Program-made: the position numbers and the translations under genes
Shown here: piece by piece, positions 7,236 through 64,000 of the stretch
Layout of the letters: every line of letters begins with the position of its first letter
How positions within the stretch are numbered: the stretch's first letter is position 1
Notes under the pieces: generated by a model
The model's database searches: none
Seen by the model: the letters and a program-made list of their open reading frames with translations, nothing else
What the model was told of the DNA's origin: nothing
Origin: Patescibacteria group bacterium
GTDB lineage: Bacteria > Patescibacteriota > Patescibacteriia > Patescibacteriales > UBA12465
Length of the DNA stretch: 64,000 bases
Reading direction: 5' to 3'
NCBI GenBank assembly: GCA_050949505.1
Contig: JBMNFV010000001.1
Coordinates: forward strand, 573,644-637,643

Positions 7236-7271
7236 CACTTAGCTTTTGTCTAAAATAAGCCAAAAAATAAT

Positions 7272-7307: not shown

Positions 7308-7382
7308 CTTTAATATTATTAGCTAGTATTTATTAAAGTTTTCAACAGGTAGTCCCCAAGATTAAACCGCCTTATTGCTCTA

Positions 7383-7784: not shown

Positions 7785-7796
7785 ATATATAGTCTT

Positions 7797-9212
7797 TTAT
7801 TGATCAGTCTCTAAAGTTAATTTAACTCCCTGAGGGCCATCTTCTAGTCGGTAGCCCTGTTGCCTAATTTCTTCCCTCAAGCGATCGGCTTCTAGCCAAT
7901 CTTGCTTCTCTCTGGCCTGAGCGCGACTTAATAGCAAGGCCTTAACTGTTGCTGGTAAATCAGACTCCGCTACTACCTTCTCGGCCCTTGGCTCTAGTTC
8001 AGTTAGTCTTAAGCCTAGCACTCTATCAAAGTCTAAAACCGTCGCCAGCTTATCAGCTTTAGATAGCTTTGATTTTAAAACCGCGGAAACTACCGCTAAG
8101 GCTTGCGCGGTATTTAAATTATTATTAACCGCTGCTAAGAATTTAGCTTGAAAGACTTGACTGGGCTGACCTTGTTCTTGGCCCAAATTAATTACTGAGT
8201 TTTGTAAACTACTTAAACCTTCCTGAGCCCTTAACAATCCTTCCTCACTATATTCCATGGGCTTATGGTAGTTGCCTTGTAGGAAATAGAATCTAAAGGC
8301 CAGCGGGTCTACGCCCGACTGACTAGTTGCTCGCTCTAGGGTTAAAAAATCATCAGTACTTTTAGACATTTTCTCCCCCTCTTTATTAACCAAAAAGGCA
8401 TTGTGTAGCCAGTAGTTAAAGAAGGGGCGGCCAGTCGCTGCCTCCGATTGAGCAATTTCATTAGTGTGGTGAATATTAATATGGTCACTTCCCCCACAGT
8501 GAATATCTAAGTTATCTTTCAAGTATTTTAAACTAATCGCCGAACATTCTATGTGCCAACCCGGAAAACCGACTCCCCAAGGCGAAGGCCATTCCATTTG
8601 TCTTTGCTTGTCTTGAGGAGAAAACTTCCACAAGGCAAAGTCAGGAGGATTCTTTTTCTCTTTATTTTTCTCTACCCGTGCCCCTTCTTTTAACTCTTCT
8701 ATAGGCAACTTGCTAAGCTTATTATAATCCGTAACTAGGGCAGTATTGAAATAAAGACCATCGCTAGTTTGGTAGGTATAGCCCTTTGCTTCTAGTATTT
8801 TAATTAATTCTATTTGCTCTTTAATATGATCAGTTACCCGAGCATAAATACTTGGTGGAATAATATTTAATAACTGCAAGTCTTGCTTAAAAGCTTCTTC
8901 GTAAAACCTAGCTATTTCTATTGCGCTCTTATTTTCCTTCCTAGCACTTAGCTCTAGCTTATCCTCGCCCATACTCCTATCACCAACTAAGTGACCAACG
9001 TCAGTGATATTCATAATATGCTTAACCTGATAGCCATTATAGCTTAAGGTTCTTTTGAGAATATCAACGAATAGGAAGGCACGTAAATTACCCAAATGCG
9101 CATACTTATAGACCGTAGGACCACAGGAATAAAGGCCCACGGTTTTTCCGGCGATGGCCTTGAATTCTTCTTTTTTTCTTGTAAGCGTGTTATAAAAAAA
9201 TAACTTAGCCAT
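7797..9212 (-). CDS. cysS: Cysteinyl-tRNA synthetase
   Basis: 471-aa ORF. Class I motifs YAHLGNLR (HIGH-type) and KMSKS, plus CGPTVY at the N-terminus. Confidence 0.9.
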
Positions 9213-9230
9213 AGTCTTTATTTAAGCTAT

Positions 9231-9746
9231 TTAACGAAACCTGAGGGGCATAATTATTCTCCCCTGATTCTCTGCTAATCCAGAAGGATTGTCTTTGCTA
9301 ATTGCTAAAAATCCCGACTCTACCTCTATCGTCTCCGGGTTATACTCTAGTAGTCCCACATATTCCACTAACTCTTCATTAAGCCAATCACCGTCCGCTA
9401 CGGCCACTCCTGTTGCTAAGGAATTATTATCCTCATCTATTAGCTGCAAGACTAACTGCCCCTCAAAAAACCAGGTCCGTGAAATCTTACCCTTAACCAA
9501 CAAGGGTGAGCTAATTAATTGATTGCTCTCCGGAGTGCTAATTAGTACCCCAATTGGCTCCGTGGCTTCCCTAGTCGCCGCTATCTCTACCTCCTCATCA
9601 GCCACTGGCTCGTTCTCTGCTTCTAACTGAATAATTTCAGCAACTTGTCGGTTTGATTTTTGCTGACTAAACTCCTTAATTCGTAAAACTACCATACTCA
9701 CCAAGATTATCATGACCACCACTAAGAGAAATTTATTTTTATTCAT
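9231..9746 (-). CDS. Secreted or membrane-anchored protein with Gmad2-like Ig domain
   Basis: 171-aa ORF. N-terminal TM/signal, acidic linker, C-terminal segment (ISSPLLVKGKISRTWFFEGQLVLQLIDEDNNSLATG) resembling Gmad2 immunoglobulin-like domains. Confidence 0.4.
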   Translation of the reverse strand: MNKNKFLLVVVMIILVSMVVLRIKEFSQQKSNRQVAEIIQLEAENEPVADEEVEIAATREATEPIGVLISTPESNQLISSPLLVKGKISRTWFFEGQLVLQLIDEDNNSLATGVAVADGDWLNEELVEYVGLLEYNPETIEVESGFLAISKDNPSGLAENQGRIIMPLRFR

Positions 9747-9816
9747 ATACTAAAATAACTAACTACTAACTCTCTGCTTTGATTATATCATAATCTCCCC
9801 ACTTTGTCTTAGACTA

Positions 9817-9825
9817 TGATATAAT
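9817..9825 (+). promoter_or_regulatory. Extended -10 promoter element for rnhB
   Basis: TGATATAAT lies 18 nt upstream of the rnhB ATG, implying a very short leader. No -35 box is evident. Confidence 0.3.
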
Positions 9826-9842
9826 AATTATATCAATATTTT

Positions 9843-10466
9843 ATGTTAGACTTGCAAACTGAACAAGAGTTTTTTAATTTAGGCTACCAATATTTAGGCG
9901 GCCTAGATGAGGCTGGCCGTGGCCCCTTGGCTGGGCCAGTAGTCGCGGCCTGTGTGGTTATTGATAGTCATTTTAAAATAGACCAGTCTGACCTTAAATT
10001 AGTAACTGACTCTAAAAAATTAAGTGCCTCAAAACGAGAACAGTTATTTAAAATTATCAAAGAAAAGGTTACGGCGGTGGAGATCGGAATAGCTACTAAC
10101 GAAGAAATTGATCAAATTAACATTCTCCAGGCTAGCTTTTTAGCCATGCGCCGGGCGGTTAAGAAATTAAAAATTCAACCTGATTACCTATTAGTTGATG
10201 GAAATTTTAAAGTTCCTCAACTTAATAAATCACAAACAGCGATAGTCCATGGCGATGCTCAGGTCTTTTGTATTGCCGCCGCCTCAATTATTGCTAAGGT
10301 TAGTCGTGACTGGTTAATAACTGAGTTAGCTAAAAAATACCCTCAATATGAATTAGAGAAACACAAGGGTTATGGCACTAAAAGACACTTAGAGCTAATT
10401 GCTAAGTATGGACCCTCTCCCCTGCACCGCCTTAGCTTTGCGCCATTTAGAAATAAAAAAGCTTGA
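9843..10466 (+). CDS. rnhB: Ribonuclease HII
   Basis: 207-aa ORF. GLDEAGRGPLAGPVV catalytic motif and RNase HII-like sequence throughout. Confidence 0.9.
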   Translation: MLDLQTEQEFFNLGYQYLGGLDEAGRGPLAGPVVAACVVIDSHFKIDQSDLKLVTDSKKLSASKREQLFKIIKEKVTAVEIGIATNEEIDQINILQASFLAMRRAVKKLKIQPDYLLVDGNFKVPQLNKSQTAIVHGDAQVFCIAAASIIAKVSRDWLITELAKKYPQYELEKHKGYGTKRHLELIAKYGPSPLHRLSFAPFRNKKA

Positions 10467-10489
10467 TTTTAAATCAAGCTTATTTTTTT
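10459..10489. terminator. Bidirectional terminator between convergent rnhB and HAD-like gene
   Basis: AAGCTTGAT-TTTAA-ATCAAGCTT hairpin containing the rnhB stop codon, flanked by A6 and T7 runs. Confidence 0.55.
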
Positions 10490-10490
10490 A

Positions 10491-11150
10491 TTATCCTATT
10501 TCGTGCTGATCTATTACAACATCAAGATACTCCTTAACACTATAATAGACATCTTCCACCTTAAAGGCTCTCCACAGCCCCAACAACTGGGGCGAAGAAA
10601 TGGCTACAAAGCCTATCCCGTAGGCCTTGGCCACTGGTAAGTCTTTATTAACATCGCTGCCCACAAAGACTATTTCTTCTGGCCTAAATCTAGCCAGAAC
10701 TTTTTCTAAGGAACTAGGGTCAGGCTTTAGAACTCCCTCGTCGGAAGTTTTAATAAAATCAAAGTCTTCTACCTTTAACTTTATTTTCTCTAAACCACTT
10801 TTAACATCCGCCATCTTCCTATTGGTCAAAATACCAAAGGAATAACCGGATTTCTTTAGGAGATTTATTTTTTTAAACAACTCACTATTGAGTTGTTTAT
10901 TTATCTTCCTAAACTCTTTTTTGGCCTCATTTACAACTGCCGAAATCTGATTTCGGGTCCAGTTATACTTAAGAGCCATTTTTGGCAGGACTACCGTTTC
11001 ATAGCACCTACCATAGTCCTCTGAATAGACTAGGGCCTCATCTTGTAGTAATCCCTGACTTCTCAATGCTTGTCGCCAAACATTGATAGTTTCATCGTCT
11101 GACAACATAAGCGTGCCCCCTAGGGCGAAGATAATTAGTTTTCTTTTCAT
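10491..11150 (-). CDS. HAD-superfamily hydrolase-like protein lacking the motif I aspartates
   Basis: 219-aa ORF. HAD motifs II-IV are recognisable (GILTNRK, KPDP, VGSDVNKD), but motif I reads FALGGTL where FDxDGTL is expected. Confidence 0.6.
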   Translation of the reverse strand: MKRKLIIFALGGTLMLSDDETINVWRQALRSQGLLQDEALVYSEDYGRCYETVVLPKMALKYNWTRNQISAVVNEAKKEFRKINKQLNSELFKKINLLKKSGYSFGILTNRKMADVKSGLEKIKLKVEDFDFIKTSDEGVLKPDPSSLEKVLARFRPEEIVFVGSDVNKDLPVAKAYGIGFVAISSPQLLGLWRAFKVEDVYYSVKEYLDVVIDQHEIG

Positions 11151-38460: not shown

Positions 38461-41157
38461 TTATAGGTCTTTAGCTGGCTCTATCTCTAGGCGCCCTCGT
38501 TGATTAATCATAATTGTATCTCGTCGCTTCAGTTCGCCACTCAAAAACTTAACAGCAATCTCATTTTCTATCTCATCTTGAAGTAGTCGCCTTAAAGGTC
38601 GGGCCCCAAATTTAGGGTCATAACCTTTTTTAGCTAAAACCTTTACTCCCTTTTTGTCTGCCTTTAGGCCAACTCCCTTAAGCTCTAAGTTTTTCTTGAT
38701 CTGCTTTAACATAATGGTAGCAATCGCTTCCACATTTTCTGGACTCAAGGGCTTAAAGACAATGATGCCATCAAAACGATTAATTAATTCTGGGCGAAGA
38801 TGTTTATTTAAATGATTATCTATTAATTCCTGTCTAATCTCTGCCATCTTAGTCTCTGCTTTAATTTCTTGCTGAATATACAAAGCCCCGATATTAGAGG
38901 TAGCGATAATAATTGACTCAGTAAAATTAATAGTTCTGCCCTGGCCATCCGTTAGGCGACCATCATCTAGGAGTTGGAGGAAAAGATTTAAGATATCGGG
39001 ATTGGCCTTTTCTATTTCATCAAAGAGAATTAAGGAAAATGGCTTCTTCCTAACTGCCTCCGTGAGATAGCCTAAGGTGCCATCTGGATCACCAATCATT
39101 TTCTTAATACTATCTAGCCCCTGATATTCACTCATATCTATTCTAATCAAATAGTCTTCAGCCCCAAAATAAATATCAGAAACGGCTTTAGCGAGCTCCG
39201 TCTTACCCACTCCAGTAGGCCCCATAAACAAAAAGCTAGCAATGGGGCGATTAGAACCTTTAAGTTGTACTCGCGCTCGCCTGAGACTAGCCGCCACCGC
39301 CTTAACCGCCTCCTCTTGACCGATTAATCGTTGGTGAATTTCGGCCTCTAGATTTAATAACTTCTGACTTTCATCTATACTGATTTTATTCACTGGAATG
39401 CCAGTTAATTCCCCAATGGCAATAGCCACCTCTTCCCCGGAACAACTAGACTGCTCCGGATTATTCTGCGCTCGTTGTCTAGTAATTAGGGCTGCTTTTT
39501 CTAGTAAATCTATTGCCTTAGCTGGTAAGGATCTTTCGTGTAGATATTTTTTAGACATCTTCACCGCTTGTTCTAAGGCACTATAGACAATGAAAATATC
39601 ATACTTAGCCTCCAGTGAGCCAACCTTGCTTTCTAGAATTTGTACCGCTTCATTAAATTCAGGCTCGCTAATCTTTATTCTAGTCATAACCGAGCCTAGG
39701 GCTTGATTTTCTATATAACGATGATAATTCTCTTCAGTTGCTGAGGCCAGGCAGCGCAAATGATTCCTTTTTAACGCCTCGGCGAGCACCTCTGATAAAT
39801 CTAGGCTTTCCTGAGTGCCGGCACTGACTCCAATAAGATTTTCAATATTATCAATATATAAAACTATATTACCAGAACGACCGATCTCATTAATCATCAC
39901 TAATAGTCGCTCCTGAGCTTGAGCAGGATTAGCTCCAGAAATTAGACGAGAAACGTCTAGTTCCACTAAGCGTTTGTCCTTGAGAAAATCTGGTACTTTT
40001 TCTTCCACCATTAGCTGACTAAGTCCATTAATAATGGTTCGCTTACCAACCCCAATCGGCCCACTTAAGATAATGCCGTTCTGGCCACTAAGAAAAGCAT
40101 CAAAGATAGACTTTAACTCCTGCTCACGGGCAACACAAAGTTCAGTTTGATTATATTTAGACTGAACTGTTAGGTCATGAGAAAAGTGGTCTAGAGTGGG
40201 CGTGGAAATGGCGGTGTATGACCGATTCATTCCTGAGTCTGGTTTTAATAAGGCTGACTTTCGGTACTTACGATAATTAGACAGCATCTTCTTGTTGACC
40301 CGAAACCACGCTACCGCATTATGAATTTTATCTTGGTCTATTTCTAGTTCATACAATATTTCTATCAACCAAGCATCGCCCGCATAAGAGAAGTTTAATA
40401 AATTTAAGACATCAACATTCGGTTGTTGAAGTTCATGAGCCTCCACAAAAGACTGAATAAGAATTTTTTTCAAACTCTGATTAAAGTCATATTCCTTAGC
40501 AATTCCCGTCTCTGGTCGCTTGAGCAAGTTAGTGTCAATTAATTCCACTAATCTTTTTATATCCACATCCAAGCGGATCATTAATGCTTGAATCTCCTTG
40601 TCTTGCAACAAAACTCTAAACAGGTGCAGTGAGGTGATCTCTTTTTGGCCCAAACGTCTGGCTAACAAAAAGGTCTCTCCTAACGTGGCGGTAATCTTAG
40701 GCCCATAGGCCAGGCTAACATTATAAATTCGCTTAGAAACAGTTTTCTTTTGGCGACTGTCACTAAACTTACGGTAATTAATCTTATTATCCGCCACTCG
40801 CGCCTCACTATTTTTGTAAACTAGAAATAGATTAAAGGTGGTGGTTAATAAGAAGATTAGAATTAGCGGGTCTCGCTGCAACCAAAAGGTTAGTAGTAAG
40901 GTGGGGTCAGCCAAAATGGCCTGATGATTAAAGTATAGCCAAAGACCCAAAGAGAGGTAGCCTAAATAAACTATTGCCCAGAAAATAAACTTAATAATTT
41001 TTTTAATGCGCTTTTTATTTTTCTCTAACACTACTACTGAGCGAGAAAACTTTTTACCCCAAATTAACTCATAACCTAAATACCACAGACTAGGCGAGTC
41101 AGTGGGTCGGTGGTATCCATAGTGAAGATTAGAAAAGTTGGTCTTCTCTAAATTCAT
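38461..41157 (-). CDS. Membrane-anchored Hsp100/Clp-family AAA+ protein with a degenerate first ATPase module
   Basis: 898-aa ORF. Two N-terminal TM helices and a Clp_N-like repeat. D1 reads GPIGVGKRT / VLYIDNIENLIG where clpB has GEAGTGKTA / [13 protein letters not shown]2 is canonical ([26 protein letters not shown]). No long M-domain and no IGF/LGF loop seen. Confidence 0.75.
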   Translation of the reverse strand: MNLEKTNFSNLHYGYHRPTDSPSLWYLGYELIWGKKFSRSVVVLEKNKKRIKKIIKFIFWAIVYLGYLSLGLWLYFNHQAILADPTLLLTFWLQRDPLILIFLLTTTFNLFLVYKNSEARVADNKINYRKFSDSRQKKTVSKRIYNVSLAYGPKITATLGETFLLARRLGQKEITSLHLFRVLLQDKEIQALMIRLDVDIKRLVELIDTNLLKRPETGIAKEYDFNQSLKKILIQSFVEAHELQQPNVDVLNLLNFSYAGDAWLIEILYELEIDQDKIHNAVAWFRVNKKMLSNYRKYRKSALLKPDSGMNRSYTAISTPTLDHFSHDLTVQSKYNQTELCVAREQELKSIFDAFLSGQNGIILSGPIGVGKRTIINGLSQLMVEEKVPDFLKDKRLVELDVSRLISGANPAQAQERLLVMINEIGRSGNIVLYIDNIENLIGVSAGTQESLDLSEVLAEALKRNHLRCLASATEENYHRYIENQALGSVMTRIKISEPEFNEAVQILESKVGSLEAKYDIFIVYSALEQAVKMSKKYLHERSLPAKAIDLLEKAALITRQRAQNNPEQSSCSGEEVAIAIGELTGIPVNKISIDESQKLLNLEAEIHQRLIGQEEAVKAVAASLRRARVQLKGSNRPIASFLFMGPTGVGKTELAKAVSDIYFGAEDYLIRIDMSEYQGLDSIKKMIGDPDGTLGYLTEAVRKKPFSLILFDEIEKANPDILNLFLQLLDDGRLTDGQGRTINFTESIIIATSNIGALYIQQEIKAETKMAEIRQELIDNHLNKHLRPELINRFDGIIVFKPLSPENVEAIATIMLKQIKKNLELKGVGLKADKKGVKVLAKKGYDPKFGARPLRRLLQDEIENEIAVKFLSGELKRRDTIMINQRGRLEIEPAKDL

Positions 41158-41707: not shown

Positions 41708-44350
41708 ATGTTTAATAAATTCACTGACAAAAGCCAAGAAGCAATCATTAATTCCCAGCTAATTGCCTCAGCCTTTGGGCAGGCTGATATTGGCGCTCTG
41801 CACATGCTGCTATCCTTATTACAACAGCGAGAAAGCTTGGTAAGAGCTATTTTAGAAAAGATGAAAATAGACCCTGAAGTTATAGAAGAAGCGGTTATTA
41901 AGGAAATAGAGAAATTACCTAAAGTAAAAACTCCCAGCAAGAGCACTCCCATGCAATCGGTTTCTGGCACTCCTGAAACTGCCCTGATCTTAGAACGATC
42001 CAAGAAAGAGGCCGACGGCATGGGAGATGACTTTATCTCCACCGAACACTTATTGCTCGCTCTCATAGGCATTGAGTCTGATGCGCAGGCGATTCTCTTA
42101 AGTTTCCAAGTGGAATTAAAGTCAGTTAAGGAGATATTAAAGTCCTTACGGGGCAATCAAAGGGTTCACGACCCCTTTCCGGAAAATAAATATAATGTCT
42201 TAGAAAAATACACTAGCAATCTCACCGAATTAGCTCGTCAAGAAAAACTGGACCCGGTTATCGGTCGCGATCAGGAAATTAGGCGGATCATGCAAGTGCT
42301 TCTGCGCCGCACTAAAAACAATCCCGTCTTAATTGGTGAGGCTGGCACCGGAAAAACCGCTATTGTTGAGGGACTAGCCCAAAGAATAGTGGCTGGTGAT
42401 GTTCCTGAAAATTTGAAGAATAAAGAAGTGGTCACCTTAGACCTAGGCTCTTTAGTGGCGGGAGCTAAATTTCGGGGAGAATTTGAAGATCGTTTTAAAG
42501 CCGTCCTTAAAGAAGTTCAGTCTCAAAATGGCAAGATCATTCTCTTTATTGATGAGCTCCACACCCTAATCGGTGCGGGAGCTTCCGAGGGCTCTATGGA
42601 TGCTTCTAATATGTTAAAGCCGGCTCTGGCACGCGGTGAGCTCCGAACCATTGGGGCCACCACTACCAAAGAGTATCAAAAATATATTGAAAAAGATGCC
42701 GCTTTGGAGAGGCGCTTTCAGCCAGTGATGGTCAATGAGCCGAATTTAGATGATGCGGTTTCTATGTTAAGAGGACTTAAAGAAAAATATGAAGTCCATC
42801 ACGGGGTAAGGATCACTGACAACGCTTTAATTGCTGCTGTTAAGCTATCTAACCGCTATATTAGTGATCGCTTTCTGCCTGATAAGGCGGTTGACTTAAT
42901 TGATGAAGCCACCTCTTCCCTGCGCATGGAGATAGACTCTATGCCTGATGATTTAGACCAACTTAAGCGAGAAATTAAGCAATTGGAATTAAATAAGGCG
43001 GGACTAATGACTACCAATAAGCGCTCTGCTAAGCTCCGCACTATTAACCAAGAGTTGGCTAAGTTAAAAGAGCAAGCCACGCAGCTAGAATTGCATTGGA
43101 ATAATGAGAAGAATATTATTTCTCAAATTCGGGAATCTAAAAAGAAGATTGATGACCTTAAAATTCAAGCCGAGATCGCCCAACGTCAAGGCAGTGACCT
43201 AACTGAGGTAGCGAAAATAAAATATGGCCTAATCCCGGACTTAGAAAACAATATTAACGAACGTCAAAATGAATTAGTTAAAATTCAAAAACAAGGACAA
43301 CGAATTCTCAAGGAGGAAGTAGACGAAGAGGATATTGCTAAGGTGGTCGCTCGCTGGACTGGAATTCCCCTTAATCGCATGCTCCAAGATGAAATAAAAA
43401 AACTAAGTGAAGCCGAAGCTGAGTTGGAAAAAGTAGTGGTAGGGCAATCAGAGGCTATTCAAGCAATTGCTAACGCTATTCGTCGCTCTCGGGCGGGAAT
43501 TAATGAAGAGAAAAAACCAATTGGCTCTTTCCTCTTTGTTGGTCCTAGTGGAGTAGGAAAAACTGAACTAGCTAAGGCCTTAGCTCGCTTTATGTTTAAC
43601 GACGACAAATCCTTAATTAGATTAGACATGAGTGAATTTATGGAGCGTCATTCTGTGGCTAAATTAATTGGCTCCCCTCCTGGCTATGTTGGTCATGATG
43701 AAGGCGGACAATTAACTGACCGCGTTCGTCGTCATCCCTATAGTGTTATTCTCTTTGATGAAATAGAGAAGGCTCACCCAGACATGTTTAACATGTTGCT
43801 ACAAATTCTTGATGATGGTCGCCTAACTGATTCTAAGGGACGAACCGTTAACTTTAAAAATACTATTATCATTATGACCTCCAATTTGGGCAATGAGGTG
43901 ATCAGACAATATTCAATTGGTTTTGCTGACACCTCTAATCAGACTGAGGTCGCTGTTCAACAAACCTCTGAAATGAAGGCTAAGATAGATAAAATTCTAA
44001 AAAACCACTTTAAGCTGGAATTTCTCAATCGGATTGATGAAATTGTCCTTTTCCGCAGCCTCAGTCTTAAGGCTCTAGAAAAGATCGTGGACCTAGAGCT
44101 TAATAAGGTAGAAGCGAGGTTGAATAATAAAAATATTAATCTGCGAATTACTCCTAAGATCAAAAAGATGTTAGCTGAGAAAGGTTATGACATTACCTAT
44201 GGGGCCCGACCCTTAAAGCGCATTATTCAGACTATGATCTTAGATGAACTGGCTCTAGATATCATTGCTAACAAAATTAAGGATGGGGATAAGGTAAAAA
44301 TAGATTTAAATAAGCAAGAAGCGATTGATATTAGCATTCTTAAACGATAA
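41708..44350 (+). CDS. clpB: Chaperone ClpB (Hsp100 disaggregase)
   Basis: 880-aa ORF. Clp_N, D1 ([15 protein letters not shown]), a long coiled-coil M-domain, D2 ([25 protein letters not shown]). Confidence 0.92.
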
Positions 44351-56960: not shown

Positions 56961-57209
56961 TTACTGAGCCTCAGGAGTGGCTTCGGGAGCCGCTTGGTTC
57001 AAGAAATTAACTACATCATTAAGAGTGTTGGAGTTCTGAACCGTGGCCTGCTGTAATTGAACTAAAGCATTAGTAGCATTATTCATCCGAACACTAAAGT
57101 TCAGAAAGACCATAATTAAAACTCCTGCGATAATTCCCACAACAAAGGGAAAAACGAAATCTTTTTTCATAGGTTTTTTATTAGTTGTTTTTTTAATTAG
57201 CTTATTCAT
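56961..57209 (-). CDS. Small bitopic membrane protein, paralog B
   Basis: 82-aa ORF. One TM helix, then LVQLQQATVQNSNTLNDVVNFLNQ. Paralogous to the upstream 66-aa ORF. Confidence 0.45.
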   Translation of the reverse strand: MNKLIKKTTNKKPMKKDFVFPFVVGIIAGVLIMVFLNFSVRMNNATNALVQLQQATVQNSNTLNDVVNFLNQAAPEATPEAQ

Positions 57210-57402
57210 TGGCTTGGATTTGAAGTGAATTAAGGAACTCTACAATTGCGCTCACTTGAGCTGAATTATTGTAGGTAGTTTGTTGCAACTCTATAATATT
57301 CTTATCTAGTCGTTGCAAAGAAAAAAATGAATAGATAAATAGTGTCGCGACTAAAACACCAGCTACTATCCAAATAATTAAATTAACAGCTGACTTATTC
57401 AT
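57202..57402 (-). CDS. Small bitopic membrane protein, paralog A
   Basis: 66-aa ORF. One TM helix, then IIELQQTTYNNSAQVSAIVEFLNS. 8-nt overlap with paralog B. Confidence 0.45.
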   Translation of the reverse strand: MNKSAVNLIIWIVAGVLVATLFIYSFFSLQRLDKNIIELQQTTYNNSAQVSAIVEFLNSLQIQANE

Positions 57403-57485
57403 AAGATTTAATAACTAACTTTTATTTATTAAATGTTTAACTAAGGCTAATTATAGCAATATTAGAAACTAGGGTCAATAATTCT

Positions 57486-60203
57486 CTACTTAGACTTATT
57501 CTTAATCTCTAAAATGCTTAGTCTAGCCTCTAAATTATTAATTATTTTCTGCTGTTCCTTCACAGCTTCTATTAAAGGCGCCACTAAGTTACCATACTGT
57601 ACCCCCTTCTCATCGTCACCAGAGACTAACTCAGGGAAAATCTTTTCTACTTCTTGAGCAATGAGACCAACACTAGGCTTCCCATTCTCTTTCCAGGTGA
57701 AGTTAACTCCTCGCAAAGCCAAGACCTTATCCAAGGCTCCACTGATCGTCCGAACATCTTTCTTTAACCTAATATCCGAATTATAAACGAATCCTAAAGA
57801 CCTCGCCTGACCATTGATGTCTAGCTTGTACTGAGGACTGTTAGTCCCAATACCAACTCTCCCTGTTCCATTGCCATCAGACCTTGTAATCATAAACTCT
57901 GGAATACTGGGAAAGGTGCCTCCTGATGTATCCTTTATAGAAAAGGCGTCTACTGCATAAGTATTGCCACTCTCTATTCTCCAACGTCTATAATTCCCAC
58001 TAGTTTGATGTATAAGCGTTATGTCTGCTGGCCCACTAGTATTATTTATCTCTAGCTTAGCCCCAGGATTAGTAGTACCAATACCAACTCGCCCACTATT
58101 ATTTTCAACTAATACTTTCCTCCAAGTTCCCCAAGTAGTTGCTCCGGTTGAAAGCCTAGTCCATAAGTTGCCATTACTAGTATAAGATAGTTGCATCACT
58201 GGTCCTCCAGAAAAGTCTGTAGTGTTACCATAGCTCTTCCAAGTCATCACCCCATTGTAGCTTCCTCCATCATATAGTCCATTAGTGCCATTTGATTTAA
58301 AATCAAATTTAACAACCGCAGGATAAGCATTAGGGCTATCATTAACACTTCTGGTATCTCTCGATCTTAAAAAGATAGCCGCGTCTACCTCATCTACTGC
58401 TCCGCAATATATTCTACCCGTAGAATCCGTTTTCAAAGCGCTCCCTGATGCGGTGCAAGTCAAATTAGTCCTTATAGTCCCTACTACATGCAACTTATCA
58501 AGAGGATTAGTAGTACCAATACCGACATTGCCATTATCCAATATTCTCATTCTTTCTTGGACATTACTACCTCCTGTTCTAAATATCATATCTCCTGCCC
58601 CTCCACTTCTTCTTATTCCTCCTATCTCTGGACCATAGCCAACGCTAGTGCTAGTCCTAAACTTAATAGTCGCTCCTCCATTTTCATTAGTGGTGTCAGC
58701 TGCAGTTACTCCCATTAATTCTATATAAGGACGAACTGTTCCTGGCGTTCCTTGACTGGCTATTCTTAATATTGAAGTTGAAGTTGGTCCACTAAAAACA
58801 GACCCTCCTAATAAGACTGGACCACCAACAACATTTAATTTATTAATGCCTGGATTACTCGTTCCTATTCCCACATTACCATTACTCGCTAAAATAGTCA
58901 TCCTTTCTATATTATTAGTCTTTATTCCTATATCATAGTTATTACTAGACCCAAACATTCCTTTACCGCCGCCAGTTATATTATTCCCTCCCACATACCA
59001 AGGAGAAGCAGGAGTGGTGGGTGCTAATGCATTAGCTATGCCATCTACATAACTTTTAGTAACTGCACTACTAGAAGTTAATGGAGTATCTACATGTACT
59101 TGTCCCTTAAGATAAGTATTGGTTATGTTGTCATTTCCTAAAACTACAGTACTTGAGCCTTTGCCTATAGCATTATAGCCAATCACAATTTCATTATTAG
59201 TTCCATCTGCCGAGGCTTTAGAATTAGCCCCTATATACACTCCATAATTACCAGTTGTTCTAGTCGCTTTGTTATCTGCCAACCTACTGCCTGCATGCAA
59301 GCCTATTCCCACATTTCCCGTTCCTGAAGTTTGATAATATAGAGAATAGACTCCTACTCCTGTATTAGAATTACCTGTTTTATGACTAACTAAAGCACCA
59401 TGACCAAGTGCTGAATTATCATTTCCATCTATATTATTACCCAACGAAGACCCTCCAATGGCAACGTTTTGATAGCCTGTTTCATTACTGCGCAAAGCAA
59501 CATTTCCAAAAGCTAGATTTTTAAAACCCGAGGTAGTAGATGCTAACGCCTCGCTTCCAATTGCTGTATTTAGATATCCAGTGGTCAACTTAGTCAATGC
59601 TAAGTATCCCATTGCTGTATTGAATCTTCCTTCAGTTATTGAGGTTAAAGTATTGGCACCAACAGCTATATTGTATGATCCGTGAGCACTACTACTACCT
59701 CTCATGGTAAAATTACCTGAATTCATGCCTATAAAGACATTGTAACCATCACGTCCTGCTGGTTTAAAATCATGAATAAAGGGAATGCCATCTTTATAAA
59801 TCACTCCCGTAGTAGTGCTAGTAGTCACTGGTAAACGAAGACTACCAGTTAACTGTAATTGCTGTTGAGGATTGGTGGTGCCGATACCCACTCTAGTCCC
59901 ATTATCATATAACACTCCTGTGCCCAGAGTACTAGCTCCAGTCCAGCGAGCGGTATAATTAGCGATCCCTGTGCCTCCTGTTCCTCCTGCGCTACCACAC
60001 TCTAAGAATCCTCCATTTCCCACAATAATCACCTCGCCTTCATCACAATCTAAGTTATCTACTCTTAGTCTAGTTGATATAAAAACATCCTTGGTGTCGC
60101 CAATCTCAATCTCCAGTGCTTGCGTTTGACTGGTTGCTAAAACTACGCCACCAATAATTATTGCTAGCGCTAATAATGAATTAATAAAGGTTGATTTTTT
60201 CAT
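57486..60203 (-). CDS. Secreted tail-fibre-like surface protein with a C-terminal S74-type intramolecular chaperone domain
   Basis: 905-aa ORF. Signal peptide (ATSQTQA-LE), ~14-aa-period NxAxGxxAL head-like repeats (aa ~175-350), five G(N/R)VGIGTxxP modules, TKSYVDG motif and a C-terminal 97 aa beginning SDIRLKKDV..LRGVNFTWK..GLIAQEVEKIFPELV (57489-57779). Confidence 0.7.
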   Translation of the reverse strand: MKKSTFINSLLALAIIIGGVVLATSQTQALEIEIGDTKDVFISTRLRVDNLDCDEGEVIIVGNGGFLECGSAGGTGGTGIANYTARWTGASTLGTGVLYDNGTRVGIGTTNPQQQLQLTGSLRLPVTTSTTTGVIYKDGIPFIHDFKPAGRDGYNVFIGMNSGNFTMRGSSSAHGSYNIAVGANTLTSITEGRFNTAMGYLALTKLTTGYLNTAIGSEALASTTSGFKNLAFGNVALRSNETGYQNVAIGGSSLGNNIDGNDNSALGHGALVSHKTGNSNTGVGVYSLYYQTSGTGNVGIGLHAGSRLADNKATRTTGNYGVYIGANSKASADGTNNEIVIGYNAIGKGSSTVVLGNDNITNTYLKGQVHVDTPLTSSSAVTKSYVDGIANALAPTTPASPWYVGGNNITGGGKGMFGSSNNYDIGIKTNNIERMTILASNGNVGIGTSNPGINKLNVVGGPVLLGGSVFSGPTSTSILRIASQGTPGTVRPYIELMGVTAADTTNENGGATIKFRTSTSVGYGPEIGGIRRSGGAGDMIFRTGGSNVQERMRILDNGNVGIGTTNPLDKLHVVGTIRTNLTCTASGSALKTDSTGRIYCGAVDEVDAAIFLRSRDTRSVNDSPNAYPAVVKFDFKSNGTNGLYDGGSYNGVMTWKSYGNTTDFSGGPVMQLSYTSNGNLWTRLSTGATTWGTWRKVLVENNSGRVGIGTTNPGAKLEINNTSGPADITLIHQTSGNYRRWRIESGNTYAVDAFSIKDTSGGTFPSIPEFMITRSDGNGTGRVGIGTNSPQYKLDINGQARSLGFVYNSDIRLKKDVRTISGALDKVLALRGVNFTWKENGKPSVGLIAQEVEKIFPELVSGDDEKGVQYGNLVAPLIEAVKEQQKIINNLEARLSILEIKNKSK

Positions 60204-60273
60204 AATGAAACAATCAATTGATAATAATTAATCTAACATGGCTATTATACCATTTTTTTAAACTCCTGCCTAG

Positions 60274-61809
60274 CTAATCAACCGCTTGATAATAGATGAC
60301 CCCTATTCTCTTTAACCAAGGAGAATAGTTAGCCGAACCAGTTATAAAGTTAATTTTAAAAATAAGTTGCTCACCTTGTGGCTCTAGGTCTACTCGCCAA
60401 TTAGTTAGCTTCTGCCAAGATTGGCTATCGGTAGAATAGAGAACTTGATAAGCATTCTCTGGGGCTTGAAGTTGAGTATTAAATTGAAAATTTAACAATT
60501 TCTTTCCCACAAAAGAATTAAAATTATTACTCTGATAAACTTTACTAGATTGATTATCAAAGCCTAGGTCTTGGAAGCGATATAGCTCCTGCTCACTAGC
60601 AATCATTAGCACCCCGGGAGACTCTAAGGAGCAATAGGTGGCGCCGGTTGGTAAAATATAACTTAAATCTATAGAGCCTTGTATTTGCTTAGTACCATTT
60701 TGCCATAACTTAACTAGCTTAGGCTTCTTAGGATCATTACTACATAAATACCAAGTGCTCCCTACCCCAACCCCATCCTTAATTAGTCTTCCCGGGAAAC
60801 CTCCTTTCATCACCCTTAGCCCCAAATTATCAGAAACATCTTGCCAGACTCCTTGCTGATACAATAATGCCAAAGATTCATAGCCAGTATAGATAATAAG
60901 AAAATTATCATCCTCTCCGGCAGCGGTCACTGTCCCAAGAGGACGACTGTAGGTAGTTTTAGACTTTAAGGCTTCACTTTTAATAACTATTTCTAAAAAC
61001 TTACCTTGACTAAAGAAATAGGGGAGGAGTCGCTCCTCCTCTCCTTCAGCAACGATAAACACTACTAACCATTTACTAGTTAACGGAGTGACTGATAGGT
61101 TTCTAATCTCCTCCGTCATTAACTCTGAGGGTAAAGCTACTAAGCGATTATTATAAATTAACTGGCCTTCGCTCACTCGGAGACAATTTTCCGCTAAACA
61201 AGTTTCCGATTCTACTTGATCTAGCCCACAATAGGGGGTAAAGCAATCTCCCACTTGATTAAGACTATAAAGTGGCGGAAAGCTTAGAGCAGAGACTAGG
61301 CCATCATAATACAAATTAGTGATAGTTTGGTCATAAAATAACCGATTAGAAAAATTATCTACCGCAATATTATTATAGACCTTGCCACTATAGCTAGGTG
61401 GAGTGCCGGAGAGAGTTTCTGGATCTAAGACTTTAGCCTCATAGTCTATCTCCGGAGGAATGAATTGATATTCCTCACCACTCACTATCTCTACCTCTGG
61501 TCTCTCAGCTGACTCTGGAGCTTTAGATAAAGTAACTGACTGACTATTAGTCTCACTGTTGGTGGCCAAAGAAATTACCTTGCCCTGAGCATTGACCACT
61601 AAAGGAGAGTTCTTTATCATTCCTATCTCTTCACCCCTCTCTTTTAATACTTCTTGGATAATATAATCAGTTTGCTGTCGTAGCTTTATAGTGCTAATCA
61701 GATTAACTATCGTTAGCGTGCTGATAAATAGTAATAATACTCCGAGAACTATAATATAGAGGTCAACCGTTAGCTGCCTATTCTTTTTTGTCACTTTAGC
61801 TTTAGTCAT
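60274..61809 (-). CDS. Membrane-anchored extracytoplasmic protein, unknown family
   Basis: 511-aa ORF. N-terminal TM helix and a large Cys-containing ectodomain. No motif I can name. Confidence 0.5.
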   Translation of the reverse strand: MTKAKVTKKNRQLTVDLYIIVLGVLLLFISTLTIVNLISTIKLRQQTDYIIQEVLKERGEEIGMIKNSPLVVNAQGKVISLATNSETNSQSVTLSKAPESAERPEVEIVSGEEYQFIPPEIDYEAKVLDPETLSGTPPSYSGKVYNNIAVDNFSNRLFYDQTITNLYYDGLVSALSFPPLYSLNQVGDCFTPYCGLDQVESETCLAENCLRVSEGQLIYNNRLVALPSELMTEEIRNLSVTPLTSKWLVVFIVAEGEEERLLPYFFSQGKFLEIVIKSEALKSKTTYSRPLGTVTAAGEDDNFLIIYTGYESLALLYQQGVWQDVSDNLGLRVMKGGFPGRLIKDGVGVGSTWYLCSNDPKKPKLVKLWQNGTKQIQGSIDLSYILPTGATYCSLESPGVLMIASEQELYRFQDLGFDNQSSKVYQSNNFNSFVGKKLLNFQFNTQLQAPENAYQVLYSTDSQSWQKLTNWRVDLEPQGEQLIFKINFITGSANYSPWLKRIGVIYYQAVD

Positions 61810-61816
61810 AATTAGT

Positions 61817-61846
61817 AAAAAGGGCGCGGCCTCTTGGCGGCGCCCC
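61817..61846 (-). terminator. GC-rich rho-independent terminator after the cupredoxin gene
   Basis: Minus strand: GGGCGC-CGCCAAGAGGCC-GCGCCC followed by T5. Ends 8 nt before the next ATG. Confidence 0.55.
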
Positions 61847-61862
61847 TTTGGCTTAACTACTA

Positions 61863-62543
61863 TTATTCAACAATCATGCTGCCAATTTCCCCCCGACCTG
61901 AGTGTCCGGGAACATCACAGCGGAAAGAATATTCTCCCTTCTCGCTAGGAGCATTAAAGGTAATCGCCCGAGTCTCATTAGGGCCAACCCCAATTGCCAC
62001 CGCCATTAACTGTGGGTCATCAAACATAAACACGTGGGTAATGTTATCCACTGAGGAAATAGCCATAGTCACTGGCGCTCCCGCCTTAACGGTAAAGGAA
62101 CTAGGAGAGAATCCTGAAGCACTGGCCTCAACTTTAATCACTGAACCTGGCAACTCATCTCTACTTATTGGCCCAGTCTGCTGAGGAGCCTCAGGGGACA
62201 TTGGGACCACATCATTCTTGGTGGCCTCACCAGTTAAGGTAACTACAGTATTTTCAATAATCGGATTAGCTCCATCTATCTCTACCCGAGAACCTTCAGG
62301 GATTAATTGCCCTGACTCCGTCTCAGTCATTTCCATTGGTTCAAAGTCTTCTAAGCCCTCTGGACCTACGACTTCTTCAGTCTCAGTCTCCGTACCGCCA
62401 GGAACTTGAGAAGAAGTTTCCTCTGACTTGTTAACAACTAGAGCAATCACTACTAAGATAACAATGATCGCTATTCCTAAAATTAGCAAGATTTTGCTAT
62501 TAGGTTTTTTGGCATTATTAGCCATCTTTTCTTCATTTTCCAT
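61863..62543 (-). CDS. Membrane-anchored cupredoxin (type-1 copper-site-like) protein
   Basis: 226-aa ORF. TM helix, acidic Thr/Glu-rich linker and a C-terminal cupredoxin fold with ligand-like pattern H (NITHVF) ..C-x2-PGH-x9-M (FRCDVPGHSGRGEIGSM). Confidence 0.6.
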   Translation of the reverse strand: MENEEKMANNAKKPNSKILLILGIAIIVILVVIALVVNKSEETSSQVPGGTETETEEVVGPEGLEDFEPMEMTETESGQLIPEGSRVEIDGANPIIENTVVTLTGEATKNDVVPMSPEAPQQTGPISRDELPGSVIKVEASASGFSPSSFTVKAGAPVTMAISSVDNITHVFMFDDPQLMAVAIGVGPNETRAITFNAPSEKGEYSFRCDVPGHSGRGEIGSMIVE

Positions 62544-62621
62544 AATATTTAGGGATAAATCTAGCTATTCTAAGAAATAGACTATCTTTATCTTAATTAT
62601 TAATTAGTTTAAAATTATTGC

Positions 62622-64000
62622 TTAGTTAATAATAAAGCTAGGCCTCTCCTGTTGGTCTTGAGCCTTAGTGGGCCAATTGCGCCAATCAAATCGTTTAGCG
62701 GTAAATCGATAACTAACCTCCACTGACTGATCAGCTCGCAAGATTAACTTTTGTCCATCTATATAATAATAGGTGTTAGCTAGTTTACCGTAAGGAGTCA
62801 TAATCACCTCCACATTATTTCTATTGAAATCTACCACCTGATACCAAACCCACAAGTCACTCCCTTCCGCCTCCTTAGAGAAGTCTATCACTGCCTGATA
62901 CTCATTCCCTACCCGCTCCGCCAATTTAATCCTCCCCACAATCTCTTCCGTCACCCCTCCCACCAACGCTGAAGCAAAGGTAGAGTAGTTAACCCCCCTA
63001 ATCTGATACAGAGGGTCAATGGTACCAACGGTGAGTTTATTTCCAATATCAAGATCTTTAATATATATCTTTGAGGCTGTAAGACTAAAAGATGGCGCCC
63101 TATAAGCAGAAGGAATAGTGGAAATTTCAGCAGCTTCTTCTATTTGAATAGCATCAAAATAAATAGTTTCAGAAGTAGAGCCATCAGAGTCTATGTCCAT
63201 TCTTACTAATGTAAGCAAGGTGGTGTCAGGGGCTGTGGTAAATACAGTTGAGCAACGGACCCATTTGCCAGTTCCGAGAGTATCTTTGTTTATTGTACAT
63301 CCTCGATGAGTAAGGGCTGAACCATTTTCCCTAGTATACATTTGCGCACTAGCTTTATTGCCGCTAGGTCGATAAGCATAATATGAGAAGATGTATTTAG
63401 TATTAGGTTTAACATTAATAGATAAATTAGCATCTGGAATACAATATCCATCAGTATGGTTTCCAGTTAATTTATAAGAATAGCTACCATCAAGAGAATA
63501 GTCATCACTAACCTCACCTCTACCACTGCCATCTGGGGTATTTGGATTACAAAGACTTTCTCCCAAAGGAAAGTTTTCAAAAGATGAATATCTTCCATCC
63601 ATTATATTAGGATGAATTAAAGATCGATAATTCTTTTGTAAGAAATCTAAAGACACAGCATGGTCAGGATTATATGGAGTAATATTTAATCCTGAAATCA
63701 GTCCCCCTTTTACATCTATCACATTTCCTGTCCCACCGTTCACTACTAAAGTGGTGGTGGGATTAGTGGTGCCAATTCCTACATAATTACTACTATTAAC
63801 TGTAATCCCCGGTTTTACATCATATCTAAGTTGAATATTCTTATTAGTGGTGTCATAAGCTATTTGCCCCGCATTACTAGATGACGAGCCTCCTCCAAAA
63901 AGAATATATCCAATACTGCTGCTTAAAATACTTAACCCTCTACTACTCGAGCCTTCTATCACTAAATCATCCGCATTAACATTGGGCGTAGTTACTGACG
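62622..64000 (-). CDS. Second tail-fibre-like surface protein with a CBM-like jelly-roll domain; 5' end beyond the window
   Basis: The reading frame stays open to the right edge (..SVTTPNVNADDLVIEGSSS..), so the GTG at 63962 is probably not the true start. Contains YVGIGTTNP, GLISGLNITPYNPDHAVSLDFLQKNY (tail-fibre collar-like) and a ~160-aa CBM4/9-like region (63132-63611). Confidence 0.6.
   Translation of the reverse strand, partial: SVTTPNVNADDLVIEGSSSRGLSILSSSIGYILFGGGSSSSNAGQIAYDTTNKNIQLRYDVKPGITVNSSNYVGIGTTNPTTTLVVNGGTGNVIDVKGGLISGLNITPYNPDHAVSLDFLQKNYRSLIHPNIMDGRYSSFENFPLGESLCNPNTPDGSGRGEVSDDYSLDGSYSYKLTGNHTDGYCIPDANLSINVKPNTKYIFSYYAYRPSGNKASAQMYTRENGSALTHRGCTINKDTLGTGKWVRCSTVFTTAPDTTLLTLVRMDIDSDGSTSETIYFDAIQIEEAAEISTIPSAYRAPSFSLTASKIYIKDLDIGNKLTVGTIDPLYQIRGVNYSTFASALVGGVTEEIVGRIKLAERVGNEYQAVIDFSKEAEGSDLWVWYQVVDFNRNNVEVIMTPYGKLANTYYYIDGQKLILRADQSVEVSYRFTAKRFDWRNWPTKAQDQQERPSFIIN

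What the first reader, a model, noticed from the sequence alone, without database searches (positions are those of the whole stretch)
57486..60203. 905-aa mosaic fibre with a Sec signal, adhesin-head-like repeats, five VGIGTxxP modules and a self-cleaving S74 chaperone
The C-terminal 97 aa (57489-57779) start with SDIRLKKDV and continue LRGVNFTWK..GLIAQEVEKIFPELV. This matches the intramolecular chaperone domain of endosialidases and tail spikes, which drives trimerisation and then cleaves itself off at the conserved Ser. Upstream, aa ~175-350 form a ~14-residue periodic NxAxGxxAL repeat like the heads of trimeric autotransporter adhesins. I would not expect this combination in one cellular, signal-peptide-bearing protein. 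It predicts a trimeric, proteolytically matured surface fibre.
Basis: partly seen in the sequence, partly recalled or inferred. Interest (0 to 1): 0.55.

Follow-up and report, generated by a model that had tools for sequence, protein, structure and literature searches.

The report
Phage-tail-fibre-like surface fibre of a Patescibacterium
This gene encodes an exported, probably three-stranded surface fibre built from phage-tail-fibre parts with a self-removing folding domain; the protein type is very common and was already characterised in the predator Bdellovibrio, and here it sits in the chromosome of an ultrasmall Patescibacteria bacterium.

Summary
The ORF is real: 57486-60203 on the minus strand, 905 aa. 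It has an N-terminal Sec-type leader and five exact VGIGT modules (0.009 expected by chance). It ends in a Peptidase_S74 intramolecular chaperone (62 bits against a cutoff of 22) with the Ser809/Lys814 SDxxxK dyad, and the predicted fold matches the MyRF chaperone domain.

The "adhesin-head-like" repeat has a 17-residue period, not 14, and matches no YadA_head or Hep_Hag model. The combination is also not unexpected. The exhaustive search found 131,301 related 50%-identity clusters. NCBI already names this exact protein [quoted passage not shown]. Signal peptide, VG-x-G/N...P...L capping loops and a self-cleaving S74 define the Bdellovibrio MAT (mosaic adhesive trimer) fibres, for which cleavage was shown experimentally (Caulton 2024).

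The context is chromosomal (LigA, GatCA, GyrB, tRNAs), not prophage.

The best reading is a MAT-like trimeric surface fibre that sheds a 10.8-kDa chaperone and exposes its distal tip, plausibly for attachment to host cells.

The mildly new elements are the Patescibacteria setting and a conserved cassette (second fibre, cupredoxin-like protein, lineage-specific 511-aa membrane protein, fibre). This is a new member of a known kind, of modest interest.

The parts
57486..60203 (-). Whole fibre gene, 905 aa (94.5 kDa precursor). Identical to NCBI MGI6374304.1, 'MAG: tail fiber domain-containing protein [Patescibacteria group bacterium]'.
60117..60203 (-). aa 1-29, Sec-type signal peptide (possibly an uncleaved signal anchor): KK n-region, 18-aa hydrophobic core, T-Q-A|L site. 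A29 and I32 are invariant in five positional orthologues.
   Evidence: heuristic; no SignalP run
59979..60116 (-). aa 30-75, short cell-proximal N-terminal segment with the Cys53/Cys69 pair, followed by a Gly-rich linker. Poorly conserved: only 3 of 119 homologues match aa 1-100.
59754..59966 (-). aa 80-150, first VGIGT capping-loop module plus the neck motif (LQLTGSLRLPVTTSTTTGVIYKDGIPFIHDF). Shared with 93 of 119 homologues. VGIGTTNP itself is at 59868-59891.
59118..59726 (-). aa 160-362, about 12 copies of a 17-residue repeat xNTAxGxxALxxNTTGx. This is the most widely shared module (116 of 119 homologues). It also occurs in phage tail-spike and virion-structural PHROGs and in a Flavobacterium phage tail spike.
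58851..58874 (-). VGIGTSNP, capping-loop module 2 (aa 444-451), preceded by ERMTI as in Bd2133.
58503..58526 (-). VGIGTTNP, capping-loop module 3 (aa 560-567). The stretch ERMRILDNGNVGIGTTNPLDKLHVVG aligns with Bd2133 ERMRIDTSGNLGLGTAAPTSALHV.
58104..58451 (-). aa 585-700, non-repetitive insert with the Cys583/Cys600 pair just before it and a W-rich end (TTWGTWRKVL). Matches phage tail-fibre PHROGs. Candidate globular or knob domain; the fold is not resolved.
57780..58103 (-). aa 701-808, distal tip unit bounded by capping loops 4 (58065-58088) and 5 (57834-57857), the same layout as the Bd3182 tip. 63% identical to the positional orthologue in L002. It becomes the free C-terminal end after cleavage.
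57489..57779 (-). aa 809-905, Peptidase_S74 intramolecular chaperone. Ser809 is at 57777-57779 and Lys814 at 57762-57764. The C-terminal helix spans aa ~870-904. The predicted released fragment is 97 aa, 10.8 kDa.
60244..60272 (-). Promoter-like site TAGGCA-17-(TG)TATAAT in the 70-nt intergenic region upstream of the fibre gene. This is weak evidence, because the total number of such sites is not above shuffles.
60274..61809 (-). Conserved neighbour: a 511-aa N-terminally membrane-anchored protein with no Pfam or PHROG hit and only 4 homologues found. In all five loci examined it sits next to a cupredoxin gene and upstream of a fibre gene.
61863..62543 (-). Conserved neighbour: a 226-aa membrane-anchored cupredoxin-like protein.
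62622..64000 (-). Second fibre gene, cut off by the window end, with one VGIGTTNP module and a CBM_4_9 domain. Its C-terminal ~140-180 aa are 53-64% identical to the ends of the 1521-aa, 1948-aa and partial 'fibre A' proteins in L002, L004 and L006.
56961..57402 (-). Two small paralogous single-pass membrane proteins (66 and 82 aa; weak ZapG/YhcB-like hit) immediately downstream. One 93-aa orthologue sits in the same position in L002.

Best explanation
The gene encodes a Sec-exported, homotrimeric cell-surface fibre of the phage-tail-fibre / Bdellovibrio MAT (mosaic adhesive trimer) type, in the chromosome of a Patescibacteria (CPR) bacterium. Shown here by sequence: an N-terminal leader; a mosaic shaft made of a 17-residue repeat block and five VGIGTxxPxxxL capping-loop modules; and a C-terminal S74 intramolecular chaperone with the Ser809/Lys814 dyad. 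Inferred from characterised relatives (K1F endosialidase, T5 pb1, MyRF, Bd3182): the three C-terminal chaperone domains associate first and template trimerisation of the beta-helical shaft from the C-terminus. Ser809 then attacks the Asn808-Ser809 bond, the 10.8-kDa chaperone leaves, and the distal tip (aa ~701-808, perhaps with the aa 585-700 insert) is exposed as the ligand-binding end of a mature ~81-kDa-per-chain fibre. Scaling from the 550 A quoted for the 922-aa Bd3182 gives a length of roughly 45 nm. The N-terminal end stays cell-proximal, held either by an uncleaved leader or by the conserved membrane proteins encoded next to it (the 511-aa protein and the cupredoxin-like protein). More speculative: the fibre mediates attachment of the episymbiont to host-cell surface glycans.
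For: S74 hit at 62.2 bits against a cutoff of 22. Alignments to MyRF ICA 7dc3 and T5 pb1 6f45 place S809/K814 on their catalytic Ser/Lys. S809 and K814 are nearly invariant in alignment A2. The AF2 model of aa 809-905 has pLDDT 79-91, and Foldseek matches MyRF ICA at prob 1.00, TMt 0.61, rmsd 2.6 A. The VGIGT modules align to the Bd2133, Bd3182 and Bd1334 crystal chains. The published MAT motif, signal peptide and S782A-abolished self-cleavage are in PMC10769870. The protein is mosaic, with module-wise homology. The context is chromosomal and shows synteny with a related genome. The leader is conserved in positional orthologues. The paired cysteines and a nearby DsbA-like gene fit export.
Against: No experiment exists on this protein. 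Trimer formation could not be modelled; the monomer AF2 models of the shaft are poor (mean pLDDT 56 and 47.5). The leader was judged by eye only, so cleavage versus membrane anchoring is open. The ~130-aa conserved N-terminal domain of Bdellovibrio MATs could not be compared and is probably absent, because the fibre modules start ~75 aa after the leader. No ligand or host is known. The tip is the most conserved part between two orthologues (63% against 36% for the rest), which is not the pattern expected if tips are swapped to change host range.
Confidence: 0.75

Rival explanations
1. The molecule is the same, but its role is enzymatic or non-adhesive. It could be a tailspike-like glycan depolymerase, or a structural envelope or aggregation fibre that acts on the host or on the organism's own surface polymers rather than as a host-recognition adhesin.
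For: S74 chaperones are classically attached to endosialidases and depolymerising tail spikes (PMC10769870). The repeat block matches PHROG 'tail spike' families and a Flavobacterium phage tail spike. The neighbouring fibre carries a carbohydrate-binding CBM_4_9 domain.
Against: No glycosidase or lyase domain is detected by Pfam, NCBIfam or PDB sequence searches. The best structural relatives of the shaft modules are the non-enzymatic Bdellovibrio fibres.
Confidence: 0.13
2. It is a tail fibre of a prophage, tailocin or extracellular contractile injection system rather than a fibre of the cell itself.
For: 27 PHROG tail-fibre or baseplate families hit the protein. 1,026 phage records match parts of it. 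PGAP names it a tail fiber domain protein.
Against: The four flanking genes tested have no PHROG hit. Neighbours and the rest of the window are housekeeping genes: LigA, GatCA, DsbA, GyrB, ClpB, PBP, aaRS and tRNAs. The locus is syntenic with housekeeping flanks in another genome. The protein has an N-terminal export leader that virion fibres lack. No phage record covers 80% or more of it, and identities are below 37%.
Confidence: 0.07
3. It is a trimeric autotransporter adhesin (type Vc) with a YadA-like head, as the JGI names of several homologues suggest.
For: The Gly/Asn/Ala-rich periodic repeat superficially resembles head repeats. JGI labels several homologues 'trimeric autotransporter adhesin'. 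One homologue has a true YadA_head hit.
Against: The period is 17, not 14. No YadA_head, Hep_Hag or YadA_anchor hit appears. The profile of the repeat finds no TAA in the PDB. The C-terminus is an S74 chaperone, not a beta-barrel anchor. From general knowledge, Patescibacteria are not known to have an outer membrane for a type V anchor.
Confidence: 0.02

Closest known systems
Bdellovibrio bacteriovorus MAT (mosaic adhesive trimer) fibres, S74 subgroup, e.g. Bd3182 (Caulton et al. 2024, PMC10769870; PDB 8ojn/8onb/8onc, 8ond)
   Same: A cellular protein of ~900-1000 aa with a signal peptide, a mosaic shaft with repeated V-G-x-G/N-T-x-x-P-x-x-x-L capping loops, a tip bounded by two such loops, and a C-terminal S74 with SDxxxK. 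The chains align directly to the query's VGIGT modules.
   Different: The phylum and cell envelope differ (Patescibacteria versus a diderm predator). The conserved ~130-aa N-terminal MAT domain was not demonstrated and is probably absent. The shaft contains a 17-residue repeat block that did not align to any of the solved Bdellovibrio fragments. Patescibacteria are not in the paper's list of taxa.
Phage tail fibres and tail spikes with the intramolecular chaperone (K1F endosialidase 3gw6; T5 L-shaped fibre pb1 6f45/4uw8)
   Same: The C-terminal chaperone/protease domain with the Ser-Lys dyad, and a trimeric fibre logic with N-terminal attachment and a C-terminal receptor-binding tip. Many PHROG tail families match.
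   Different: The gene is chromosomal in a cell, it has an export leader, it has no virion gene neighbours, and no phage protein is collinear over 80% or more of its length.
Eukaryotic MyRF ICA domain (7dc3)
   Same: This is the best sequence and structure match of aa 781-898, including the preceding GRVGI(G/N)T capping loop at the same spacing from the catalytic Ser.
   Different: MyRF is a membrane-bound transcription factor. Only the chaperone unit is shared.
Trimeric autotransporter adhesins (YadA, Hep_Hag heads)
   Same: A trimeric fibrous adhesin concept, with a Gly/Ala/Asn-rich short periodic repeat.
   Different: A 17-residue rather than 14-residue period, no HMM match, no beta-barrel anchor, and a different secretion logic.

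Membership tests
Peptidase_S74 / intramolecular chaperone auto-processing domain | Match to PF13884 above the gathering score | tested here: met
   62.2 bits against 22, E 5.7e-17, aa 809-860, profile positions 1-57 of 58
Peptidase_S74 / intramolecular chaperone auto-processing domain | Catalytic Ser-Lys dyad in S-D-x-x-x-K | tested here: met
   S809-D-I-R-L-K814. It aligns with the dyad positions of T5 pb1 and MyRF and is nearly invariant in A2 (S379/K384 of the segment)
Peptidase_S74 / intramolecular chaperone auto-processing domain | Chaperone fold with a long C-terminal helix, at the C-terminal end of a fibre | tested here: met
   AF2 pLDDT 79-91 for aa 809-905. Foldseek to 7dc3 gives prob 1.00, TMt 0.61, rmsd 2.6 A. 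3gw6 is next, but weak
Peptidase_S74 / intramolecular chaperone auto-processing domain | Trimerisation-dependent autoproteolysis releasing the domain | not testable with these tools
   Needs expression of wild type against S809A/K814A. A 10.8-kDa fragment is predicted
Bdellovibrio-type MAT fibres (Caulton 2024) | N-terminal signal peptide | tested here: inconclusive
   The pattern is classical by eye and conserved in orthologues, but no predictor was available and an uncleaved anchor is not excluded
Bdellovibrio-type MAT fibres (Caulton 2024) | Repeated capping-loop motif V-G-(x)-G/N-pi-x-x-P-x-x-x-L along a beta-helical shaft | tested here: met
   Five copies. They align to Bd2133, Bd3182 and Bd1334 chains at E 1e-4 to 7e-4 for the whole protein. 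Chance expectation is 0.009
Bdellovibrio-type MAT fibres (Caulton 2024) | Conserved ~130-aa beta-rich domain directly after the signal peptide | tested here: inconclusive
   No Bdellovibrio N-domain sequence or structure was available. The query's aa 1-100 match only 3 of 119 homologues, and fibre modules begin at about aa 80, so the domain is probably absent
Bdellovibrio-type MAT fibres (Caulton 2024) | Intertwined homotrimer; surface display; adhesion | not testable with these tools
   Only monomer AF2 was available, and the shaft pLDDT is below 50 for most residues
Trimeric autotransporter adhesins (type Vc) | YadA_head / Hep_Hag 14-residue head repeats | tested here: not met
   No hit at E <= 1 on the whole protein or E <= 10 on the repeat region. 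The period is 17. The profile against the PDB finds no TAA
Trimeric autotransporter adhesins (type Vc) | C-terminal YadA-type beta-barrel membrane anchor | tested here: not met
   The C-terminus is S74 and there is no anchor hit
Prophage / tailocin tail fibre | Embedded among phage structural or assembly genes | tested here: not met
   Flanking genes have no PHROG hits. Flanks are housekeeping genes and synteny is conserved

The most novel reading that the evidence does not exclude
The fibre is one component of a conserved, lineage-specific Patescibacteria surface cassette: a fibre A with a CBM-type tip, a membrane cupredoxin-like protein, a ~511-aa orphan membrane protein, an S74 or other fibre B, and small YhcB-like membrane proteins. 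In this reading the cassette forms the host-attachment apparatus of these episymbionts. The orphan membrane proteins would be the cell-side socket, and fibre modules would be reshuffled at a fixed locus to track hosts. That would make it a CPR counterpart of the Bdellovibrio MAT system with a new anchoring solution for a cell without an outer membrane.
Probability: 0.25. Interest if true: 0.6.

Novelty: new member of a known kind. Interest (0 to 1): 0.3.

Why it matters
How Patescibacteria recognise and hold on to their host cells is largely unknown. The abstract of PMC11623550, seen, says so and points to type IV pili. MAT-type fibres mediate prey handling in Bdellovibrio. Finding the same kind of fibre in a CPR chromosome, at a conserved locus with lineage-specific membrane partners, gives concrete candidates for attachment and host-range determinants. 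As a protein architecture, however, it is ordinary. It is one of more than 100,000 related clusters, it is already named by PGAP, and its mechanism is established in relatives.

Tried and rejected
1. YadA_head/Hep_Hag homology: rejected.
2. The 14-residue period: rejected in favour of 17.
3. PF26696, which is precomputed on many homologues: it is absent from the Pfam copy at hand and from the paper library, so its identity is unknown.
4. Structure of the N-terminal half: the AF2 monomer has mean pLDDT 56 (70-83 only in aa ~129-259). Foldseek against the PDB gave noise only. Against BFVD it gave only weak hits to viral fibre and ICA proteins, none at E <= 0.001. The fold of the 17-residue repeat is therefore unresolved.
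5. Structure of the shaft in the C-terminal half: pLDDT below 50.
This gave no taxonomic survey.
7. The look-up of encoding contigs for the query itself: not on record.
8. Diversity-generating retroelement or recent duplication: no long template/variable repeat pair and no tandem DNA repeats. Only the VGIGT modules recur, at 61-77% DNA identity over 44-51 nt.
9. Sortase LPxTG motif and lipobox: absent.
10. Literature on S74 or MAT-like fibres in Patescibacteria: none found in the library.
Full report
OBSERVATION

The ORF at 57486..60203 on the minus strand exists and encodes 905 aa. Its N-terminus, MKKSTFINSLLALAIIIGGVVLATSQTQA|LEIE, has a basic n-region, an 18-residue hydrophobic core and small residues at -3/-1. 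It has no lipobox, and the protein has no LPxTG motif. No signal-peptide predictor was available, so cleavage versus an uncleaved anchor stays open.

The exact string VGIGT occurs five times, at aa 105, 444, 560, 706 and 783, each followed by xxPxxxL. In 20,000 shuffles of the protein the mean count is 0.009.

The periodic region is real but was mis-measured. BLOSUM autocorrelation of aa 151-362 peaks at lag 17 (z = 9.7) and lag 34 (z = 6.6), while lag 14 gives z = 0.3. The consensus, which is clearer in homologues, is xNTAxGxxALxxNTTGx.

Peptidase_S74 (PF13884) hits aa 809-860 at 62.2 bits (gathering score 22, E 5.7e-17). It is the only Pfam hit on the protein at E <= 1.

YadA_head and Hep_Hag do not hit the whole protein. 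They also do not hit the isolated repeat region at E <= 10, and neither does an idealised repeat region from a homologue. A profile of the repeat region (A1) finds no trimeric-autotransporter head in the PDB. It finds only Bdellovibrio fibres, through the VGIGT module. NCBIfam adds nothing.

THE S74 DOMAIN

Sequence searches against the PDB align aa 781-898 with the MyRF ICA domain (7dc3, E 2.5e-5; 6.7e-7 for the C-terminal segment alone). They align aa 807-898 with the chaperone of the phage T5 L-shaped tail fibre (6f45). In both, S809 and K814 fall on the catalytic Ser/Lys positions.

In an alignment with eleven homologous C-terminal segments, S809 and K814 are nearly invariant. The monomer AlphaFold2 model is confident only here (pLDDT 79-91 for aa 809-905), with a long C-terminal helix. 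Foldseek matches it to 7dc3 at probability 1.00, TMt 0.61, rmsd 2.6 A over 116 columns. The K1F chaperone 3gw6 and Bdellovibrio fibres follow as weak matches.

Cleavage before S809 would release a 97-aa, 10.8-kDa fragment from a mature chain of ~81 kDa.

THE VGIGT MODULES

These are the capping loops of the Bdellovibrio MAT fibres. Caulton et al. 2024 (PMC10769870) describe 21 MAT (mosaic adhesive trimer) proteins of ~1000 aa with these features:

- a signal peptide;
- a conserved N-terminal domain of ~130 aa;
- an intertwined trimeric beta-helical shaft bearing V-G-G/N-pi-x-x-P-x-x-x-L capping loops, which they also noted in MyRF;
- in 13 of the 21, a C-terminal S74 with SDxxxK.

They showed self-cleavage of Bd3182 at S782 and its loss in S782A.

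The query aligns directly to their crystal chains. ERMRILDNGNVGIGTTNPLDKLHVVG matches Bd2133 ERMRIDTSGNLGLGTAAPTSALHV, and NSGRVGIGTTNPGAKLEI matches Bd3182 DVGRVGVGTTAPTSALHV. The query's last ~100 residues before the cleavage site are bounded by two capping loops (aa 706 and 783), the same layout as the Bd3182 tip.

HOW COMMON IT IS

The exact protein is in NCBI as MGI6374304.1, [quoted passage not shown], on a 706-kb contig.

- The word-indexed search returned more than 3,705 homologues, and that figure is capped. Among the best 120, many carry PF13884. The sources name them "tail fiber domain-containing protein" or "trimeric autotransporter adhesin". The organisms named include Pacebacteria/Paceibacterota, Saccharimonadaceae and Bacteroidota.
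- The exhaustive search of 1.84 billion cluster representatives found 131,301 proteins at E <= 1e-3, 54,501 at <= 1e-10 and 4,380 at <= 1e-30.
- Of the 120 best, 63 start with a hydrophobic leader.
- One homologue, P0107, has a true YadA_head hit together with S74.

MOSAICISM

Different segments match different subsets of the 119 best homologues:

| Segment | Homologues matched (of 119) |
|---|---|
| 17-residue block | 116 |
| aa 90-150 module | 93 |
| S74 domain | 63 |
| aa 700-808 | 51 |
| aa 560-700 | 6 |
| aa 362-440 | 2 |
| aa 440-560 | 0 |
| aa 1-100 | 3 |

PHROGs places nearly all modules in phage tail proteins as well. The S74 end hits many tail-fibre and baseplate families, aa 562-899 hit a tail fibre, and the repeat block hits tail-spike and virion-structural families. 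A tblastn against 50,697 phage records finds 1,026 with partial matches. None covers 80% or more of the protein, and none exceeds 37% identity.

CONTEXT

The window is chromosomal. It carries five tRNAs, LigA, GatC/GatA and a DsbA-like protein just downstream, and GyrB, two ClpB-like genes, a PBP, BipA, CysRS and HisRS elsewhere. The four genes flanking the fibre have no PHROG hit.

A related genome (L002, GCA_964587195.1) has the same gene order. Flanking proteins are 40-73% identical. Its fibre at this position is 1416 aa. The last 203 aa are 63% identical to the query, the rest is 36% identical over ~500 aa, and about 500 aa are extra.

The upstream 511-aa membrane protein has only four homologues in 5.8 billion proteins. 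In every locus examined (window, L002, L004, L005, L006) it lies between a cupredoxin-like membrane protein and one or more leader-bearing VGIGT fibres. Where the contig extends upstream of the cupredoxin gene (window, L002, L004, L006), another fibre precedes it, and its C-terminal domain matches that of the window's truncated CBM_4_9 fibre at 62622-64000.

The positional fibre orthologues share the leader and an A|(K/Q/L)xIx(L/I)G motif just after it. No DGR-like repeat pair or tandem DNA repeat involves the gene.

MECHANISM

Shown here: the sequence features listed above.

Inferred from characterised relatives:

- export through Sec;
- C-terminal nucleation of a homotrimer by the chaperone domains;
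- folding of the shaft;
- Ser809/Lys814-mediated cleavage and loss of the chaperone;
- exposure of the distal tip as the binding end;
- the N-terminus remaining cell-proximal.

More speculative: the conserved membrane neighbours hold the fibre on the cell, and the fibre binds host-cell surface glycans during episymbiosis. The paired cysteines (53/69 and 583/600) and the nearby DsbA-like gene fit an extracytoplasmic location.

WHAT COULD NOT BE RESOLVED

- The fold of the 17-residue repeat. The monomer AF2 model reaches pLDDT 70-83 only for aa ~129-259, and there were no significant Foldseek matches in the PDB or BFVD.
- The trimeric state.
- Whether the signal peptide is cleaved.
- Whether the Bdellovibrio MAT N-terminal domain is present.
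- The ligand.

VERDICT

The structural prediction is well supported by homology, but the claim of an unexpected combination is not. This is a new member of a known kind: S74-terminated, MAT-like, phage-tail-fibre-derived cellular fibres.

I found no paper in the library describing such fibres in Patescibacteria, and Patescibacteria are absent from the MAT paper's taxon table. The phylum setting and the conserved cassette are therefore the only mildly new elements.

Noticed in passing
window 56961-64000; L002 125-12829; L004 1314-17438; L005 3197-6554; L006 1-6160: A gene cassette conserved in five loci: fibre A with a shared C-terminal domain (where the contig reaches that far upstream: window, L002, L004, L006), a membrane cupredoxin-like protein, a ~511-aa orphan membrane protein, and leader-bearing VGIGT fibre(s) with or without S74. 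The 511-aa proteins are only 29-40% identical across these loci.
   Followed up: partly
window 62622-64000 (-): The ORF listed as 446 aa with a GTG start has no in-frame stop upstream and runs off the window end. It is the C-terminal part of a larger second fibre (orthologues are 1521 and 1948 aa) with one VGIGTTNP module and a CBM_4_9 domain. It lacks S74, like the 'NS74' MATs.
   Followed up: partly
window 60274-61809 (-): A 511-aa N-terminally anchored protein with no Pfam or PHROG hit and only four homologues at E <= 1e-3 among 5.8 billion proteins. It is always adjacent to the cupredoxin and fibre genes.
   Followed up: partly
window 57202-57402 and 56961-57209 (-): Two small paralogous single-pass membrane proteins (66 and 82 aa) directly downstream of the fibre, overlapping by 8 nt. 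JGI names the 82-aa one YhcB/DUF1043-like. L002 has a single 93-aa orthologue in the same place.
   Followed up: partly
L002 8001-12251 versus window 57486-60203: Positional fibre orthologues differ by ~500 aa. The chaperone plus distal tip are the best conserved part (63%), while the shaft is 36% identical. The conserved end is the tip, not the cell-proximal part.
   Followed up: partly
L003 (GCA_017880035.1) 1-10820: Another genome has two S74-terminated proteins within 8 kb, separated by a 1335-aa DUF2341/CBM96 protein and three proteins with no Pfam hit. This suggests multi-copy fibre clusters.
   Followed up: no
protein P0107 (homologue, 1146 aa): It combines a genuine 14-residue YadA_head match (aa 635-659, 26.5 bits) with VGIGT modules and S74. 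True TAA-head modules therefore are sometimes part of this mosaic family.
   Followed up: partly
window 38461-41157 (-) and 41708-44350 (+): Two ClpB-like AAA+ genes are arranged head to head. The minus-strand copy shows no Clp_N hit and weaker first-AAA hits than the plus-strand copy.
   Followed up: no
window 57825-59897: The five VGIGT modules are still recognisable at the DNA level (44-51 nt, 61-77% identity). The 17-residue protein repeats leave no DNA-level tandem signal, so the repeat block is old rather than recently amplified.
   Followed up: yes
window 1-64000: GC skew is negative in almost every 2-kb bin and most genes are on the minus strand. This is consistent with the window lying within one replichore.
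   Followed up: no
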